A stretch of 64,000 nucleotides of DNA. It comes from Escherichia coli. GTDB lineage: Bacteria > Pseudomonadota > Gammaproteobacteria > Enterobacterales > Enterobacteriaceae. The position numbers and the translations under genes were made by a program. Shown piece by piece: positions 1 through 6,280 of this stretch (within the stretch, counting starts at the first letter, position 1; each line of letters begins with the position of its first letter). The notes under the pieces are model-generated. The model worked only from the letters and a program-made list of their open reading frames with translations, made no database searches and was not told the origin of the DNA. The stretch lies in NCBI RefSeq assembly GCF_024700885.2, contig NZ_CP117016.1; one strand, written 5' to 3'.

Positions 1-1
1 C

Positions 2-736
2 CAGATCCCCAGCGATTCCGGGAAGTTTGGCGTTTTTGAGGAGCTGCACGGCTTCGACAGCGGCAAGGCTCTGGCAGAGCATCTTGAATGGGCCACGTCC
101 TGCTACTACGGTTCGCCGTTCCGGGAGTGGCTGAAAGCACTGACCGCTGATCTTAACGGACTAACGGCACAGGCAAAATCGCTGATGAAGGAATATGCTG
201 CCGCCCTGACTCCGAAAGATGCAGGCAATCAGGTGGGCCGGGCTGTGAACCGCTTTGCTCTGGTGGCGATGGCAGGTGAACTGGCAACCCGTCTGGGTAT
301 CACCGGCTGGCCTGAGGGTGAAGCACTGCGGGCAACCCGCGTCTGCCTGAACGCATGGCTGAAAGATCGCGGGCACACCGCCAATCAGGAAGATATCGCC
401 GCACTGGAGCAGGTTCGCAGTTTCTTTACCGCGAATCAGTACAGCCGCTTTGCAGACTGGTATGACGAGCGCAACCGCCCCGGCAATATGGTGGGCTGGC
501 GCAGGGTGGAGAAAGGCAGTACCGCGCAGGGCACGGAAGCTGTCACTACGTTCTATGTCATGCCGTCCGGCTGGAAAGAAATCTGCAGGGGATTTGACCC
601 GCGCAAGGTGGCGCGTCTGTGCGCAGATCGTGGATACCTGCTGCCCTCCACAGATGGCAAACTCCAGACAACCATTCGCCCGCCAGAGATGAATCCCCGC
701 AGGCTCTATGTCTTCAACAGCGAGGTGCCTGGTTAA
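2..736 (+). CDS. P4 alpha-like primase/helicase, C-terminal part (5' end outside window)
   Basis: Open frame runs from window edge to stop at 734-736 (translation QIPSDSGKFGVFEELHGFDSGKALAEHLEW...RLYVFNSEVPG). Followed immediately by alpha-type iterons, as at the P4 crr. Family assignment from position and recollection of P4-like primase C-termini, not from a search. Confidence 0.55.
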   Translation, partial: QIPSDSGKFGVFEELHGFDSGKALAEHLEWATSCYYGSPFREWLKALTADLNGLTAQAKSLMKEYAAALTPKDAGNQVGRAVNRFALVAMAGELATRLGITGWPEGEALRATRVCLNAWLKDRGHTANQEDIAALEQVRSFFTANQYSRFADWYDERNRPGNMVGWRRVEKGSTAQGTEAVTTFYVMPSGWKEICRGFDPRKVARLCADRGYLLPSTDGKLQTTIRPPEMNPRRLYVFNSEVPG

Positions 737-770
737 GGCTTTGCGTGAGTCTTATTTATTAAGGGTAACA

Positions 771-958
771 GGTGAAACAGGTGGAACAACCGTATTTTAC
801 AGGGCTGAACCTGTTCCACCTTCTGAAATAGTGAGGTGGAACAGATGTAACGCCAGCCAATCCGCTGTTCCACCTTGTTACCCGCGATGTTCCACCGGTG
901 CAGTGTATATAAATGCCTTATAAAACAAAGCCGTAACACATGTTTCACCTGTTCCACC
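771..958. repeat. Iteron array: 8 copies of GGTGGAACA/TGTTCCACC (two degenerate) in both orientations; putative crr/ori-like replication site
   Basis: Copies read directly at 771-780, 780-789, 811-820, 835-844, 865-874, 889-897, 941-949, 950-958. One C longer than the P4 type I iteron TGTTCACC. Sits directly 3' of the primase gene. Confidence 0.75.
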
Positions 959-1136
959 GCATCAGGGACATAAAGCAGACTGAAACAGAGGGCATTTTTA
1001 TCTGGCTGGCTTTCATAGCCACGTCTGAATAACCGCAAGCGCCCGTTGTGCCAGCCACCACACACTGAACACCGATAGTGTGCTTGTGTCAGCCACGACA
1101 CAATTGACGTAACGAACCAACCCGACAGGAGAAGTC

Positions 1137-3516: not shown

Positions 3517-3529
3517 CACGGATAGTATA

Positions 3530-4498
3530 GTGGCTGAGACATACGAAGATAAAGTTGCTAATCATGTTTCAGAGTGGGAAATGGAAAATTTCCGTGTATG
3601 TTATGATGATCAGGTTATTTTCTTATGTGGTGCGGAAGTACTTCCTCAAGGAAGTGTTCAGACTTCAATGAGAGGGCATTTTTATCACTATTGCCTGAAT
3701 AAAAATAAAGATATAGCTGATAAAATAATTCTTGCCGAAAACTTCAAAAAATATCTTCAAAATAATCATTATCCAGACTTAATAACTTTTGAGCATGATG
3801 TTGCAAGTATATCTAGTTTAGTTGTTATTTTCTTGGAAAGCAGTGGTTCAATTGCTGAGTTAGGTGTTTTCTGTAATATTAGTGATGTCAATAAAAAATT
3901 ATTGATATTTGTTCCATCAGATGAAGTTGAAGGTGACAAGAAAGAGTCTTTCATTTACTTAGGGCCTTTATTGTTTTTAAAAGAAAAGGTCAATGAAAAA
4001 GCATTTAAGATTTATCCAAAACCCACTAATGGTTCTGATTACTCCGAGCATTTAGAGATTATGGCTGATGACTTGGCTGAACTATTACCTAGAAGTGGTA
4101 AGTTTGAAAGCTTCGATCCTGACAATTTAGGGCATATAGCTTTTCTTATATGCAGAATTGTGCATTTAGTAATGCCTATTAAGCTAAAGGAAATATTAAA
4201 TTGTTTAAAAATAATAGGTATCAATAAATATACTCTGACTGAGGTTGAAAGAATTTTGTTTTTATTGGAAACATTGGGTTTTATAAATATTTATCCGTAT
4301 GGCGATTTAAAATACTATTATTCAATGCAAGCCAGGCAAAATCTTAAATTAGGGAAAAATAAAACCGGATTCACAATCGATGAGGCTGGTATTTTTACTG
4401 ATATTAGTGTTTTTATCAATGACAATAAATTATGTAGTGATAAAAAAAGACGGCTGGTTTTGAAAGGCATTAAGGAGAAGCATAATGGACATAATTAA
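3530..4498 (+). CDS. Retron-associated effector, nucleoside 2-deoxyribosyltransferase-like N-terminal domain plus C-terminal domain of unknown function (322 aa)
   Basis: Motifs VIFLCGAEV and ESSGSIAELGVF resemble the NDT signature (Rossmann strand ending in Gly; D/S-x-G-T/S-x-x-E-x-G with catalytic Glu). Overlaps RT start by 14 nt. Start is GTG 3530 with a weak RBS; ATG 3581 is an alternative. Confidence 0.55.
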   Translation: MAETYEDKVANHVSEWEMENFRVCYDDQVIFLCGAEVLPQGSVQTSMRGHFYHYCLNKNKDIADKIILAENFKKYLQNNHYPDLITFEHDVASISSLVVIFLESSGSIAELGVFCNISDVNKKLLIFVPSDEVEGDKKESFIYLGPLLFLKEKVNEKAFKIYPKPTNGSDYSEHLEIMADDLAELLPRSGKFESFDPDNLGHIAFLICRIVHLVMPIKLKEILNCLKIIGINKYTLTEVERILFLLETLGFINIYPYGDLKYYYSMQARQNLKLGKNKTGFTIDEAGIFTDISVFINDNKLCSDKKRRLVLKGIKEKHNGHN

Positions 4499-5417
4499 AA
4501 AAATCGCAGATGAAACTCTAATGCCGGTATCAAAAGTATCTGCTTTTATATTTACAGCCCCATATAGATATAAAGTATATCCCATCCCCAAAAGGAATGG
4601 TGGGTTTAGGGAGATTGCTCAACCGTCAAGGGCATTAAAGTTTATGCAAAGGATTGTTATTGCTGAACTAGAGAAAGTACTTAAGGTTCATGAAAACGCA
4701 TATGCTTATGTCAAAGGACGTAGTATAAAAGATAATGTGGAAAAGCATCAAAGAAACTCTTATATTTTGAAAGTTGATTTCTGCGACTTTTTTAATAGCA
4801 TAAACCCTTACGACCTTGAGTTATGTTTAAAAAACAATGGGTTAGACTCATTGTTAAGCTCACAAGAATTATTGAATAAACTTTTTTTCTATAAGAAAAG
4901 TAAAAGAGGTGCTTTATCAATGAGCATCGGGGCACCTAGTTCTCCATTTTTGTCAAATGCGATTATGTATAAGTTTGATTCAGTCATTAGTGATATGTGT
5001 TCAAATAAAAATATTACTTATACAAGATATGCTGATGATCTTACATTTTCTACTAATGAAAAAGGTATTTTGTATGAATTCATACATGAAATAGATAAAG
5101 TTCTTGAGGAGATAGATAGTCCTAAATTAAAACTAAATGATAAGAAAACCATATTTGCATCTAAAAAATGCAATCGTCATATAACAGGAATTGTTATTAA
5201 TAACGAAGAAAAACTTTCAATTGGTAGAGATAAAAAACGTTACTTAAGTAGTTTAATTCATAAATTCTCGCTTAATGCACTTAATGAGGAAGGAGTTGAA
5301 CATTTAAAAGGGTATTTGGCGTATGTAAATAAAATTGAACCTTCATTCATTAGCAGAATGAAAAGGAAATATGGAGTCGAAGTTGTCAACTCCATAATCA
5401 CATTTAATCCATTATAA
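4485..5417 (+). CDS. Retron-type reverse transcriptase (310 aa)
   Basis: RT motifs read directly: LKVDFCDFFNSI (motif A Asp), GAPSSPFLSNAIM (motif B'), TRYADDLTFS (YADD catalytic motif C), LKLNDKKT (motif D), RHITGIVIN (VTG-like retron motif). Size is typical of retron RTs (300-320 aa). Strong RBS AAGGAG 8 nt before ATG. Confidence 0.85.
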   Translation: MDIIKKIADETLMPVSKVSAFIFTAPYRYKVYPIPKRNGGFREIAQPSRALKFMQRIVIAELEKVLKVHENAYAYVKGRSIKDNVEKHQRNSYILKVDFCDFFNSINPYDLELCLKNNGLDSLLSSQELLNKLFFYKKSKRGALSMSIGAPSSPFLSNAIMYKFDSVISDMCSNKNITYTRYADDLTFSTNEKGILYEFIHEIDKVLEEIDSPKLKLNDKKTIFASKKCNRHITGIVINNEEKLSIGRDKKRYLSSLIHKFSLNALNEEGVEHLKGYLAYVNKIEPSFISRMKRKYGVEVVNSIITFNPL

Positions 5418-5894
5418 ATGTGAACTTATTATATTTATAATGGTTGTGCTTTTTTCTTGTACCTTAGGGGTGTAAAAGAATGTCATCATGAAGATAATTA
5501 AAAAATGAATGGCAATAAGAGTAATAGGTAACATTTTTTCAATATCACTTAAATGGCGATGCCTTTTTTGTGTAATAACTTCCTCTTCTCTTTTGAAAGG
5601 AGTTATACCTATCTTGACCTCCATCTCCTGAATTACTGTAAACTTAGCAGCATTAATTCTTTTATAGGAAGTAATTAGATTTATCCAATAGATATTAATT
5701 ACGACTCCAGCGAGAGAGATTAAGATTACCCAAATAGGCTGTATTGTTGGCTTTAAAGAAAAATATCCAACAAGCGGTAAAATAGAAGAGTTTAAGGCTA
5801 ATAAAAATGTATTTGACTTAAGTCTTCGATCACTTATTCTATCCGCCATCTCAACGCATGTTTTATATATTTCTATGACTTTATCATCCGTCAC
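5412..5894 (-). CDS. Small integral membrane protein, 3 predicted TM helices (160 aa), function unknown
   Basis: Hydrophobic spans at about residues 28-47, 53-75 and 122-143 after a charged N-terminus containing RR. Convergent with and overlapping the RT stop by 6 nt. GTG start at 5894. No recognisable catalytic motif. Confidence 0.5.
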   Translation of the reverse strand: MTDDKVIEIYKTCVEMADRISDRRLKSNTFLLALNSSILPLVGYFSLKPTIQPIWVILISLAGVVINIYWINLITSYKRINAAKFTVIQEMEVKIGITPFKREEEVITQKRHRHLSDIEKMLPITLIAIHFLIIFMMTFFYTPKVQEKSTTIINIISSHL

Positions 5895-6280
5895 TAATAG
5901 TATCCTTATAAATTTCTGAGTTGTTCAAATAAATGTTATCATATATTTTTATCAACGTAATATGTATTTTTACGTATTTTTAACTGTGAGAGATACATAG
6001 TGATTGTTGGGTGCATGTACAATCCTTGATACTTAACAATGAAAGCGTAGTTGTGGGGGGGGGGCATATTTGGGGGCATTACTATTTAATCTTTCTTGAT
6101 TTTTATTATAAAACAACTGGTTGTATTGATGTTTTGTTCCTATTATCGCACCATTTAAATCAAGTAGTTACCTCACATTCAATTACACCACATTTTCCTC
6201 CTGTGCCGTATTTGTGCCATTGTAACCCTGGCAATTCATCAAAATACTGTTCTGACATCAGGCAGTGCAGGTGCAGACAT

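What the first reader, a model, noticed from the sequence alone, without database searches (positions are those of the whole stretch)
1..6280. P4-like element with atypical gene order and no integrase or att site in the window
Order is alpha - iterons - sid-like - psu-like - ogr/delta - cargo, whereas P4 is sid - delta - psu. The cargo region is followed by a truncated chromosomal LysR gene rather than int plus a tRNA-derived att. By eye I found no tRNA 3' fragment between 5900 and 6300. The element is either decayed at this end or its int/att lies beyond the left window edge.
Basis: partly seen in the sequence, partly recalled or inferred. Interest (0 to 1): 0.5.

Follow-up and report, generated by a model that had tools for sequence, protein, structure and literature searches.

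The report
Complete P4-like satellite carrying a retron
The window cuts through a complete 12.2-kb P4-like phage satellite inserted in the E. coli tRNA-Thr gene thrW: its integrase lies 6 kb left of the window and its right end is in the window. It carries an anti-phage retron and has a rearranged but recurrent gene layout, so it is fairly ordinary.

Summary
They are the primase/helicase 3' end, 8 iterons, sid-like, psu, a single-domain ogr/delta, then an St85-family retron plus a membrane protein.

The element is not decayed.
- In genomes 100% identical to window 1-8000, a P4-type integrase (43% identical to P4 Int) and tRNA-Thr (thrW, attL) lie 4.7-6.1 kb left of the window.
A 16-nt copy of the tRNA 3' end sits at 6138-6153.
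- 140 E. coli genomes have the uninterrupted empty site, with thrW joined directly to window 6154 onwards. This fixes a 12,240-bp element.
- The truncated LysR gene is chromosomal and is also present at empty sites.

The gene order really does differ from P4. All genes run int > alpA > alpha > ori > sid > psu > delta > cos > cargo > attR, and the helicase part of alpha is DUF927-type. This layout recurs:
- 304 of 5426 complete E. coli genomes carry it.
- It occurs at thrW, leuX and argW.
- The cargo slot varies between copies (retron, Drt3, DprA system).

It is a variant architecture of a known satellite family with a known kind of defence cargo. Interest is low to moderate.

The parts
1..736 (+). 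3' end (last 245 codons) of the alpha-like primase/helicase gene. The full protein is 890 aa and starts 1936 bases left of the window.
   Evidence: RefSeq annotates it as a TOPRIM and DUF927 protein. Pfam finds Zn_Ribbon_Prim, Toprim_3 and DUF927. Only residues 5-316 resemble P4 alpha (39% identity). The part inside the window has no P4 counterpart.
771..958 (.). Iteron cluster, the putative replication origin. It holds 8 copies of TGTT(C/T)CACC in both orientations.
   Evidence: The P4 type-1 ori/crr repeat is TGTTCACC. The cluster sits upstream of sid, as the P4 ori does.
1047..1102 (+). Psid-like late promoter region with two TGT-N12-ACA boxes at 1047-1064 and 1085-1102.
   Evidence: The boxes start 38 bp apart and the second starts 52 nt before the sid ATG. 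This is the same geometry as in P4 upstream of sid (boxes at 9493 and 9531, ATG at 9583). That these boxes bind Ogr/Delta rests on prior knowledge of P2/P4 late promoters and is inferred here.
1137..1880 (+). sid-like gene (247 aa), the capsid size determination homologue.
   Evidence: BLASTP against P4 Sid gives E 2e-12 over 226 aa. PHROG 6165 scores 307 bits. It is 89% identical to the Sid of the O157 P4-like prophage Sp2.
1877..2428 (+). psu (183 aa).
   Evidence: Pfam Psu scores 147 bits. It is 29% identical to P4 Psu, E 8e-15.
2425..2706 (+). ogr/delta-type zinc-finger activator with a single domain (RefSeq places the start at 2434).
   Evidence: Pfam Ogr_Delta scores 58 bits. It matches both halves of the 166-aa P4 Delta.
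2707..2935 (.). Conserved cos-proximal block, with a cos-like core at about 2908-2935 (AAGCGGGAAGGCGTGCGGGGCTGCGCAC).
   Evidence: Similarity to about 870 genomes stops at 2931-2936, and sibling elements diverge there. The core resembles the P2/P4/186 cohesive end GGCG(A/T)GGCGGGG. That similarity alone is weak: 11-25 of 500 shuffles score as well. The cleavage site is inferred.
3035..3187 (-). Remnant of the 3' end of a P2-family portal gene (gpQ).
   Evidence: tblastn with Fels-2 Q residues 285-339 gives 47% identity, E 8e-9. An E. coli P2-like portal gives 59%. blastn to Fels-2 gives 74.7%. It lies just right of the cos-like core, as Q does in P2.
3296..3365 (+). Retron msr.
   Evidence: Rfam RF00170 scores 53.4 bits against a gathering score of 52, E 1e-7, over the full model length.
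3368..3486 (+). Retron msd. It contains a perfect 24-bp hairpin at 3375-3398/3414-3437.
   Evidence: Rfam STnc400 scores 53 bits, E 3e-8, below the gathering score of 80. That STnc400 is the Salmonella St85 msd region is my own knowledge.
3530..4498 (+). Retron effector, RcaT/NDT-like (322 aa).
   Evidence: NCBIfam NF038232, retron St85 family effector, scores 224.5 bits against a cut-off of 100. PADLOC NDT_II-A scores 265 bits.
4485..5417 (+). Retron reverse transcriptase (310 aa).
   Evidence: NCBIfam NF038233 scores 347 bits against a cut-off of 235. PADLOC RT_II-A scores 408 bits. Pfam RVT_1 matches.
5412..5894 (-). Second cargo gene, a 160-aa membrane protein of the 8xMP/RipA family. It is convergent with the RT gene and overlaps it by 6 nt. 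Its role is unknown.
   Evidence: Pfam PF24838 scores 99.8 bits. It has no match in PADLOC, NCBIfam, PHROGs or PDB. A related retron on a sibling element lacks it.
6061..6137 (.). Conserved right-end attP arm, with an integrase arm-type repeat TTGGGGGCA at 6070-6078.
   Evidence: The arm is shared with the Drt3-carrying sibling from window 6061 onwards. The repeat occurs three times in L001, all at the element's ends. The layout is the same as at P4 attP.
6138..6153 (+). attR core, a copy of the tRNA-Thr 3' end lacking one G.
   Evidence: In empty-site strain 118UI the sequence that follows attR (window 6154 onwards) follows thrW directly.

Best explanation
Identity. Window 1-6153 is the right half of a structurally complete 12,240-bp P4-like phage satellite integrated into the 3' end of tRNA-Thr (thrW).

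Full map. Positions left of the window are taken from genomes 100% identical to window 1-8000: thrW/attL, int, a 274-aa unknown ORF, alpA (excisionase/regulator), icd-like, two unknown ORFs, a cnr homologue (DUF5375), alpha-like primase/helicase, iterons (ori), Psid-like promoter, sid, psu, delta, cos, cargo, attP arm, attR.

Inferred working.
- The P4-family tyrosine integrase recombined attP with the tRNA 3' end.
- When a P2-like helper is active, AlpA and Int excise the element and the primase/helicase replicates it from the iterons.
- Delta and the helper's Ogr-type activators fire the two-box promoter.
- Sid and Psu redirect helper capsid assembly to a small capsid.
- The helper terminase cuts at the cos-like site.
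- The 12.2-kb size fits P4-size packaging.

Cargo. The cargo next to cos is a type II-A (St85/Sen2-family) retron. The RT copies msd into msDNA. The RT-msDNA complex holds the NDT-like toxin in check until phage infection disturbs it, which kills or arrests the cell. An 8xMP membrane protein of unknown role rides along.

Relation to P4. The modules keep the same cyclic order: hijack, cos, cargo, att/int, replication. The int and replication modules are turned so that everything is co-directional. In the prophage this puts int at the far left and the cargo at the far right, which is why the window contains no integrase.
For: Shown here:
- int and thrW lie upstream in strains S1-SRL-01-C and 1190, whose left 7 kb are identical to each other.
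- Int is 43% identical to P4 Int over its full length, E 3e-112.
- attL and attR form a direct repeat. The empty site is present in 140 genomes, and the listed ones are single-piece alignments across the junction.
- The element measures 12,240 bp.
- Homologues of P4 vis, the icd/kil region, cnr, the alpha N-terminus, sid, psu and delta are present.
- The iterons, the two-box promoter geometry and the attP arm-repeat layout all match P4.
- The backbone is present in 304 of 5426 genomes.
- Siblings at thrW, leuX and argW each have a tRNA-derived attR after the cargo and span 11.4-12.9 kb.
- Cargo differs between siblings: retron, Drt3a/b, DprA system, an unknown protein.
- All retron parts reach the curated family cut-offs except msd.

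From the literature:
- P4-like satellites carry a defence hotspot next to cos (PMC9122126).
- In retron-Sen2 the toxin is RcaT and the antitoxin is RT-msDNA (bioRxiv 10.1101/2020.06.22.160168).
Against: - No experiment shows excision, replication or packaging.
- alpA carries a GAA>TAA nonsense change that shortens it from 96 to 68 aa. The HTH region is kept.
- The attR core lacks one G relative to attL.
- No epsilon homologue was found by BLASTP.
- The cos-like core is only weakly similar to the P2/P4 cohesive end and lacks the AAAGCA part.
- Strain 1190 holds no second copy of the cos/Q flank (one place in the record). No resident helper with a closely matching cos flank was therefore seen.
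- The left half of the element is read from identical sibling genomes, not from the window's own genome.
Confidence: 0.88

Rival explanations
1. The element is a decayed P4-like remnant that lost int and att at the cargo end.
For: No integrase follows the cargo in the window. A truncated LysR gene lies nearby.
Against: - An attP arm and attR core are present at 6061-6153.
- int and attL are present upstream.
- The empty site matches exactly at both junctions.
- The LysR truncation is also present at the empty site. It is a separate 2.05-kb deletion relative to O157.
Confidence: 0.02
2. The element is structurally complete but now immobile. It would be a domesticated island kept for its retron. 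The truncated AlpA and the imperfect attR would prevent excision, and no compatible helper would be present.
For: - alpA has a nonsense mutation.
- attR lacks one G.
- The retron-carrying version is found only at thrW, in 23 genomes at 95-100% identity.
- Strain 1190 has no second cos/Q-like place.
Against: - All other ORFs are intact and identical across hosts from several countries.
- The same one-G-short attR is seen at thrW with a different element (O157 Sp2) and, in analogous form, at leuX and argW. It therefore looks like a normal feature of these att sites rather than damage.
- The truncated AlpA keeps its HTH region.
Confidence: 0.25
3. The element is not a P4-type satellite lineage. 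It would be a different integrative island (int-alpA-primase backbone, as in PICI-like elements) that captured a sid-psu-delta-cos module by recombination, so the hijack module may not be under the element's control.
For: - The helicase part of alpha is DUF927-type and unrelated to P4 alpha.
- The architecture class co-varies with helicase type in every locus examined.
- The sid-psu-delta module is 82-92% identical to that of classical-layout elements that have a P4-type alpha.
Against: - The backbone also carries P4 homologues: cnr at 40% identity, the icd/kil region at 54%, the alpha primase domain at 39%, int at 43%, and vis.
- The iterons resemble P4 iterons.
- Upstream of sid, the iteron cluster and the two-box spacing to the ATG follow P4's layout.
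- Size is held at 11.4-12.9 kb across siblings, as expected under a packaging constraint.
Confidence: 0.1

Closest known systems
Satellite phage P4 (NC_001609)
   Same: - A P4-family integrase targeting a tRNA 3' end, with the same attP arm-repeat layout.
- Homologues of vis/alpA, the icd/kil region and cnr, and a primase domain.
- TGTTCACC-like iterons upstream of a two-box Psid-type promoter.
- sid, psu and delta, followed by a cos-adjacent accessory slot.
- A size of about 12 kb.
   Different: - All genes are co-directional.
- The prophage map is int...alpha-sid-psu-delta-cos-cargo-attR, whereas P4 is int-cargo-cos-psu-delta-sid...alpha-attR.
- psu and delta are swapped.
- Delta has a single domain (93 aa against 166 aa).
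- The helicase/C-terminal part of alpha is DUF927-type.
- No epsilon was detected.
- It integrates at thrW rather than leuX.
Retronphage phiR73 and the P4-like defence hotspot (Inouye 1991, cited in PMC9122126; Rousset 2022, PMC9122126)
   Same: It is a P4-like element carrying a retron as accessory cargo next to cos. The cargo slot varies between otherwise near-identical elements.
   Different: In the prophage map the hotspot is bounded by cos and attR, not by psu and int. A search for an integrase within 10 genes downstream of psu, the method quoted, would not find one here. I could not obtain the phiR73 map, so its order was not compared.
O157:H7 prophage Sp2 at thrW (Sakai; locus L005 from strain Xuzhou21)
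   Same: It uses the same integration site and the same attR core. Its sid-psu-delta module is 87-90% identical in protein, and the cos-proximal block is conserved.
   Different: Sp2 has the classical P4 layout, with a divergent P4-type alpha and int next to the cargo.
Retron-Sen2 (St85) of Salmonella and Retron-Eco9 of E. coli
   Same: The operon order is msr-msd, effector, RT. The RT and effector reach the NCBIfam St85-family cut-offs, and msr reaches the Rfam gathering score.
   Different: This retron sits on a satellite and is accompanied by an 8xMP membrane-protein gene. Identity to Sen2 or Eco9 proteins was not measured because I did not hold those sequences.

Membership tests
P4-like satellites (core set int, psu, delta, sid, alpA, epsilon, alpha; PMC8628076) | P4-type tyrosine integrase adjacent to a tRNA att site | tested here: met
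   The integrase is 43% identical to P4 Int, E 3e-112, and lies next to thrW. It is outside the window.
P4-like satellites | psu, delta and sid homologues clustered together | tested here: met
   The order is sid-psu-delta. The psu/delta swap is reported for 20% of Type A elements.
P4-like satellites | alpA/vis homologue | tested here: met
   Pfam Phage_AlpA scores 21.6 bits against a cut-off of 21. PHROG assigns it to an excisionase family. A nonsense codon truncates it to 68 aa.
P4-like satellites | epsilon homologue | tested here: not met
   BLASTP of all element ORFs against P4 epsilon gave no hit at E below 1e-3. No profile search was run. The family definition allows one or two missing components.
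P4-like satellites | alpha primase/helicase homologue | tested here: inconclusive
   Only the N-terminal 316 aa align to P4 alpha, at 39% identity. The remaining 570 aa are DUF927-type with no P4 match.
P4-like satellites | Prototype order int-psu-delta-sid-alpA-epsilon-alpha | tested here: not met
   The order here is int-alpA-alpha-sid-psu-delta. This order is not among the variants listed in the text of PMC8628076.
P4-like satellites | cos site shared with a P2-like helper, and helper-dependent packaging | tested here: inconclusive
   A cos-like core lies at the end of the conserved block, with a P2-type portal remnant beside it. Sequence similarity to known cos sites is weak. Packaging cannot be tested with these tools.
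Integrated mobile element | Flanking direct repeats and an empty site in related genomes | tested here: met
   The 17/16-nt repeat is shown. 140 genomes span the synthetic empty junction.
Type II-A retron (St85/Sen2 family) | Retron RT of the St85 family | tested here: met
   NF038233 scores 347.4 bits against a cut-off of 235. PADLOC RT_II-A scores 408 bits.
Type II-A retron (St85/Sen2 family) | NDT-like effector (RcaT family) between msd and the RT gene | tested here: met
   NF038232 scores 224.5 bits against a cut-off of 100. PADLOC NDT_II-A scores 264.7 bits.
Type II-A retron (St85/Sen2 family) | msr-msd non-coding RNA upstream | tested here: met
   msr scores 53.4 bits against a gathering score of 52. 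The msd region matches STnc400 at E 3e-8, below its gathering score, and holds a perfect 24-bp hairpin.
Type II-A retron (St85/Sen2 family) | msDNA synthesis and toxin/antitoxin behaviour | not testable with these tools
   This needs an msDNA gel and toxicity and phage assays.

The most novel reading that the evidence does not exclude
The co-directional, DUF927-helicase layout may define a distinct sub-lineage of P4-like satellites. It is seen in 5.6% of complete E. coli genomes and at three or more tRNA sites.

Its defence slot lies between cos and attR. Surveys anchored on 'integrase within 10 genes downstream of psu', or restricted to elements with most P4 core genes detected, may have under-counted it. 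This layout lacks a detectable epsilon, and only about 40% of P4 alpha's length matches.

The slot would then be a partly unmined reservoir of anti-phage cargo. The portal-gene remnant beside cos would point to cargo turnover by recombination or end-joining with helper DNA at cos.
Probability: 0.3. Interest if true: 0.45.

Novelty: new variant of a known kind. Interest (0 to 1): 0.3.

Why it matters
For the scan, this closes the question. The element is whole. Its missing integrase is an effect of the window edge and of a permuted map, and the exact junctions are now known.

More broadly, a common layout of P4-like satellites places the defence slot at the attR end, far from the integrase. Pipelines that expect 'psu, cargo, int' can miss this cargo. 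Here the slot holds a type II-A retron plus an uncharacterised membrane protein. Siblings hold Drt3 and a DprA system. None of this changes what is known about how satellites or retrons work.

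Tried and rejected
- blastn of window 1-3300 against the phage collection found no nucleotide similarity to P4. The only hit was the Fels-2 portal remnant, so relatedness to P4 had to be shown at the protein level.
- The Rfam scan of the left half found no P4 CI/C4-type immunity RNA. It gave only the tRNA and a sub-threshold SymR-like hit that I do not trust.
- Literature searches for 'RipA', 'octameric membrane protein' and '8xMP' returned nothing relevant. PDB, PADLOC, NCBIfam and PHROGs gave nothing for that protein.
- The search for the phiR73 map in the paper library did not give its gene order.
- The IMG/VR scan with Psu returned only 11 loci. That was enough to show the two layouts but too few for frequencies.
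- Multiple alignments of the cos region with P2, 186 and Fels-2 did not place the cleavage site. The local alignment to P4 cos is only marginally better than shuffles.
- I considered that the LysR fragment marks the element's end. I rejected this because it is also present at empty sites.
- I considered that the iterons correspond to P4 crr. Their position upstream of Psid and sid fits P4 ori better.

Full report
**What is in the window**

- An ORF running in from the left edge ends at 736.
- A 400-nt non-coding stretch follows.
- A 247-aa ORF lies at 1137-1880.
- Psu lies at 1877-2428 (Pfam 147 bits).
- A 93-aa Ogr/Delta zinc-finger protein lies at 2425-2706.
- An AT-rich block (27-34% G+C) then holds two + strand ORFs and one - strand ORF.
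- A 71-codon LysR C-terminal fragment lies at 6281-6511.

ARAGORN finds no tRNA gene anywhere in the window.

**Where the window comes from, and the left half of the element**

Window 1-8000 is 100% identical to about 20 complete E. coli chromosomes. I read the upstream flank in two of them, strains S1-SRL-01-C (L001) and 1190 (L008). Their left 7 kb are identical to each other.

Upstream of window position 1, in order, lie:
- proA;
- tRNA-Thr (thrW);
- a 396-aa tyrosine integrase;
- a 274-aa unknown ORF that overlaps the integrase stop;
- an AlpA-type HTH gene;
- a small reverse-strand ORF;
- an Icd-like gene;
- two unknown ORFs;
- a DUF5375 gene;
- an 890-aa TOPRIM plus DUF927 protein, whose last 245 codons are window 1-736.

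The integrase is 43% identical to P4 Int over its whole length (E 3e-112).

**The right end is in the window**

The tRNA-Thr 3' end reads TCCTATTATCGGCACCA. Window 6138-6153 reads TCCTATTATCGCACCA, which is the same sequence with one G fewer, and it occurs once in the 64 kb.

I built a synthetic empty site from 600 nt ending at the thrW CCA plus 600 nt starting at window 6155, and searched the complete genomes with it. 140 genomes contain it in one place. The listed hits are single alignments across the junction at 97.8% identity.

In strain 118UI, thrW is followed directly by TTTAAATCAAGTAG, exactly as after attR in the window. The same LysR fragment, ykgR fragment, full LysR gene, hydrolase and MFS genes then follow. 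The element is therefore 12,240 bp from the base after the attL core to the end of the attR core.

The LysR fragment is chromosomal. Compared with O157 it reflects a 2.05-kb deletion that removed the LysR N-terminus, an SDR gene and a small ORF. It has nothing to do with the satellite.

The last 77 nt before attR (6061-6137) are shared with a sibling element that has different cargo. They contain TTGGGGGCA. This motif occurs only three times in 48 kb: here, and twice just upstream of the integrase gene, where one copy is inverted over the start codon. P4 attP has the same arrangement of GGGGGCA repeats on both arms. Both halves of a P4-type attP are thus present.

**Relation to P4**

BLASTP of every element ORF against P4 gives these homologues:

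| P4 gene | Identity |
|---|---|
| int | 43% |
| vis/ORF88 | 32% |
| icd/kil region | 54% |
| cnr/ORF106 | 40% |
| alpha N-terminal primase domain | 39% over 316 aa |
| sid | 23%, E about 1e-11 |
| psu | 29% |
| delta | 45% |

No epsilon homologue was found. The C-terminal 570 aa of the alpha-like protein do not match P4 alpha. They are a DUF927 domain plus an unassigned tail.

The stretch between alpha and sid holds two features.
- Eight TGTT(C/T)CACC repeats lie within 188 bp. The P4 iteron is TGTTCACC.
- Two TGT-N12-ACA boxes start 38 bp apart, the second 52 nt before the sid ATG. P4 has the same spacing upstream of sid.

I read these as the origin and a Delta/Ogr-responsive late promoter. 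The binding function is inferred from what is known of P2/P4 late promoters.

**Gene order**

The annotated P4 map gives the P4 prophage order tRNA, int, cII/beta/gop, cos, psu<, delta<, sid<, ori, vis>...alpha>, crr, attR.

The order here is tRNA, int>, alpA>...alpha>, ori, sid>, psu>, delta>, cos, cargo, attR.

On the circular form the modules keep the same cyclic order: hijack, cos, cargo, att/int, replication. The att/int and replication modules are each turned round, so all genes are co-directional and attP lies between cargo and int.

The survey of about 1000 P4-like elements reports the P4 order in 77% of Type A elements, a psu/delta swap in 20%, and other orders at about 1% or less (PMC8628076). 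The swap seen here is therefore a known variant. The co-directional order is not among those listed.

A possible reason is that this layout lacks a detectable epsilon and matches only about 40% of P4 alpha's length. It may therefore have fallen among the elements missing two components, which that analysis excluded. This is my inference.

**The layout is recurrent, not a one-off**

Window 1-2706 (alpha 3' end to delta) is present at 80% coverage or more in 304 of 5426 genomes. Five siblings were read in full.

| Site | Cargo | Span |
|---|---|---|
| thrW | this retron | 12.2 kb |
| thrW | Drt3a/b | 12.9 kb |
| thrW | DprA plus a second protein | 11.6 kb |
| leuX | another St85-family retron | 11.8 kb |
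| argW | unknown 398-aa protein | 11.4 kb |

The siblings at leuX and argW carry a different integrase. Every sibling has the tRNA 3' end repeated right after the cargo.

The classical layout always goes with a P4-type alpha (80% identical to P4's C-terminal part). The sid-psu-delta modules of the two classes are 82-99% identical. The modules have clearly been exchanged.

**cos**

Similarity to about 870 genomes downstream of delta stops at window 2931-2936. Sibling elements diverge from that point.

The last conserved bases, AAGCGGGAAGGCGTGCGGGGCTG, resemble the P4 junction AAGCGGGCG|GGCGAGGCGGGG and the 186 end GGCGTGGCGGGG. The similarity alone is weak: 11-25 of 500 shuffles reach it. The AAAGCA part of the 19-nt cohesive end is absent.

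Just to the right, at 3035-3187 on the - strand, lies a remnant of the C-terminal part of a P2-family portal protein (E 8e-9). It is placed relative to the cos-like core much as Q is in P2, where cos is at 1-19 and the Q stop is at 187.

I take the cos assignment as likely but not shown. The portal remnant suggests past recombination with helper DNA at cos.

**Cargo**

| Feature | Coordinates | Evidence |
|---|---|---|
| msr | 3296-3365 | Rfam 53.4 bits, gathering score 52 |
| msd region | 3368-3486 | STnc400, E 3e-8, below gathering score; perfect 24-bp hairpin |
| Effector | 3530-4498 | NCBIfam St85 family 224 bits, cut-off 100; PADLOC NDT_II-A |
| RT | 4485-5417 | NCBIfam St85 family 347 bits, cut-off 235; PADLOC RT_II-A |

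By analogy with retron-Sen2 and retron-Eco9, the effector is a toxin held inactive by the RT-msDNA complex (bioRxiv 10.1101/2020.06.22.160168).

The convergent 160-aa gene at 5412-5894 is an 8xMP/RipA-family membrane protein with no defence annotation anywhere I looked. Its role is open.

This exact cargo cassette is rare. It occurs in 23 of 5426 genomes, always in this context.

**State of the element**

All ORFs are intact except alpA. A GAA>TAA change shortens it from 96 to 68 aa while keeping the HTH region.

The attR core lacks one G. The same one-G-short attR occurs with the unrelated-layout Sp2 element at thrW, and analogous cores occur at leuX and argW. It therefore looks like a property of these att sites rather than damage.

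Strain 1190 has no second copy of the cos/Q flank, so no resident helper with a closely matching cos flank was seen. Whether the element still moves is untested.

**Verdict**

The 'decayed' reading is wrong, and the 'int beyond the left edge' reading is right.

The element is a P4-like satellite with a retron in the cos-adjacent defence slot, a known kind (PMC9122126). It has a recurrent but little-described co-directional layout and a replaced helicase domain. I score interest at 0.3.

Noticed in passing
window 3035-3187 (- strand): A remnant of the C-terminal part of a P2-family portal protein (gpQ) lies just right of the cos-like core, between delta and the retron. It suggests past recombination or end-joining between the satellite and helper DNA at cos. 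A related stretch (window 2941-3185, 84% identity) is also present in some Drt3-carrying siblings.
   Followed up: partly
window 6138-6153; L006 14780; L009 14495; L010 14187; L005 5636-5651: In every element examined, the attR copy of the tRNA 3' end lacks one G just before (G)CACCA. This holds at thrW, leuX and argW and for both layouts. One sibling (L007) lacks 3 nt. The attP left half-site may be one base shorter, with strand exchange confined to the last 7 or so nt. Alternatively it may be a recurrent slip.
   Followed up: partly
L001 13880-13913 compared with L002 3567-3600 (thrW, left of the window): The thrW allele next to the element differs from the allele at the empty site in strain 118UI by a compensatory pair in the T-stem (GTAGG...CCTAT against GGAGG...CCTCT).
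   Followed up: no
window 5412-5894 (- strand): A 160-aa 8xMP/RipA-family membrane protein gene is convergent with the retron RT gene and overlaps it by 6 nt. It has no hit in PADLOC, NCBIfam, PHROGs or PDB. It is absent from the related retron on the leuX sibling. It could be an independent defence or exclusion gene.
   Followed up: partly
L001 16215-16421 (about 3.7 kb left of the window): alpA carries a GAA>TAA nonsense change relative to sibling elements. This truncates the protein from 96 to 68 aa.
   Followed up: yes
window 9047/9048: An 8-bp deletion (TCATTTAT) relative to strains 1190 and 118UI frameshifts the alpha/beta hydrolase gene. It splits the gene into ORFs 8130-9077 and 8968-9279.
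   Followed up: yes
window 6507-6511 and 6800-6868: A 2.05-kb chromosomal deletion relative to O157 removed the LysR N-terminus, an SDR gene and a small ORF, with a 5-nt overlap at the junction. A ykgR fragment here duplicates part of the intact ykgR about 19 kb downstream (L001 46096-46197).
   Followed up: partly
L001 15265-16089; L009 4127-4765; L010 4283-5164: An unknown ORF immediately follows the integrase gene and, in L001, overlaps its stop. It changes together with the integrase type (274, 212 and 293 aa) and has no Pfam, PHROG, NCBIfam or PADLOC match. It may be an integrase-linked accessory gene or a second small variable slot.
   Followed up: partly
window 1137-1880: RefSeq names this Sid homologue variously 'septation initiation protein', 'phage polarity suppression protein' or 'hypothetical protein' in different genomes. 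The first name looks like a mis-expansion of 'Sid'.
   Followed up: no
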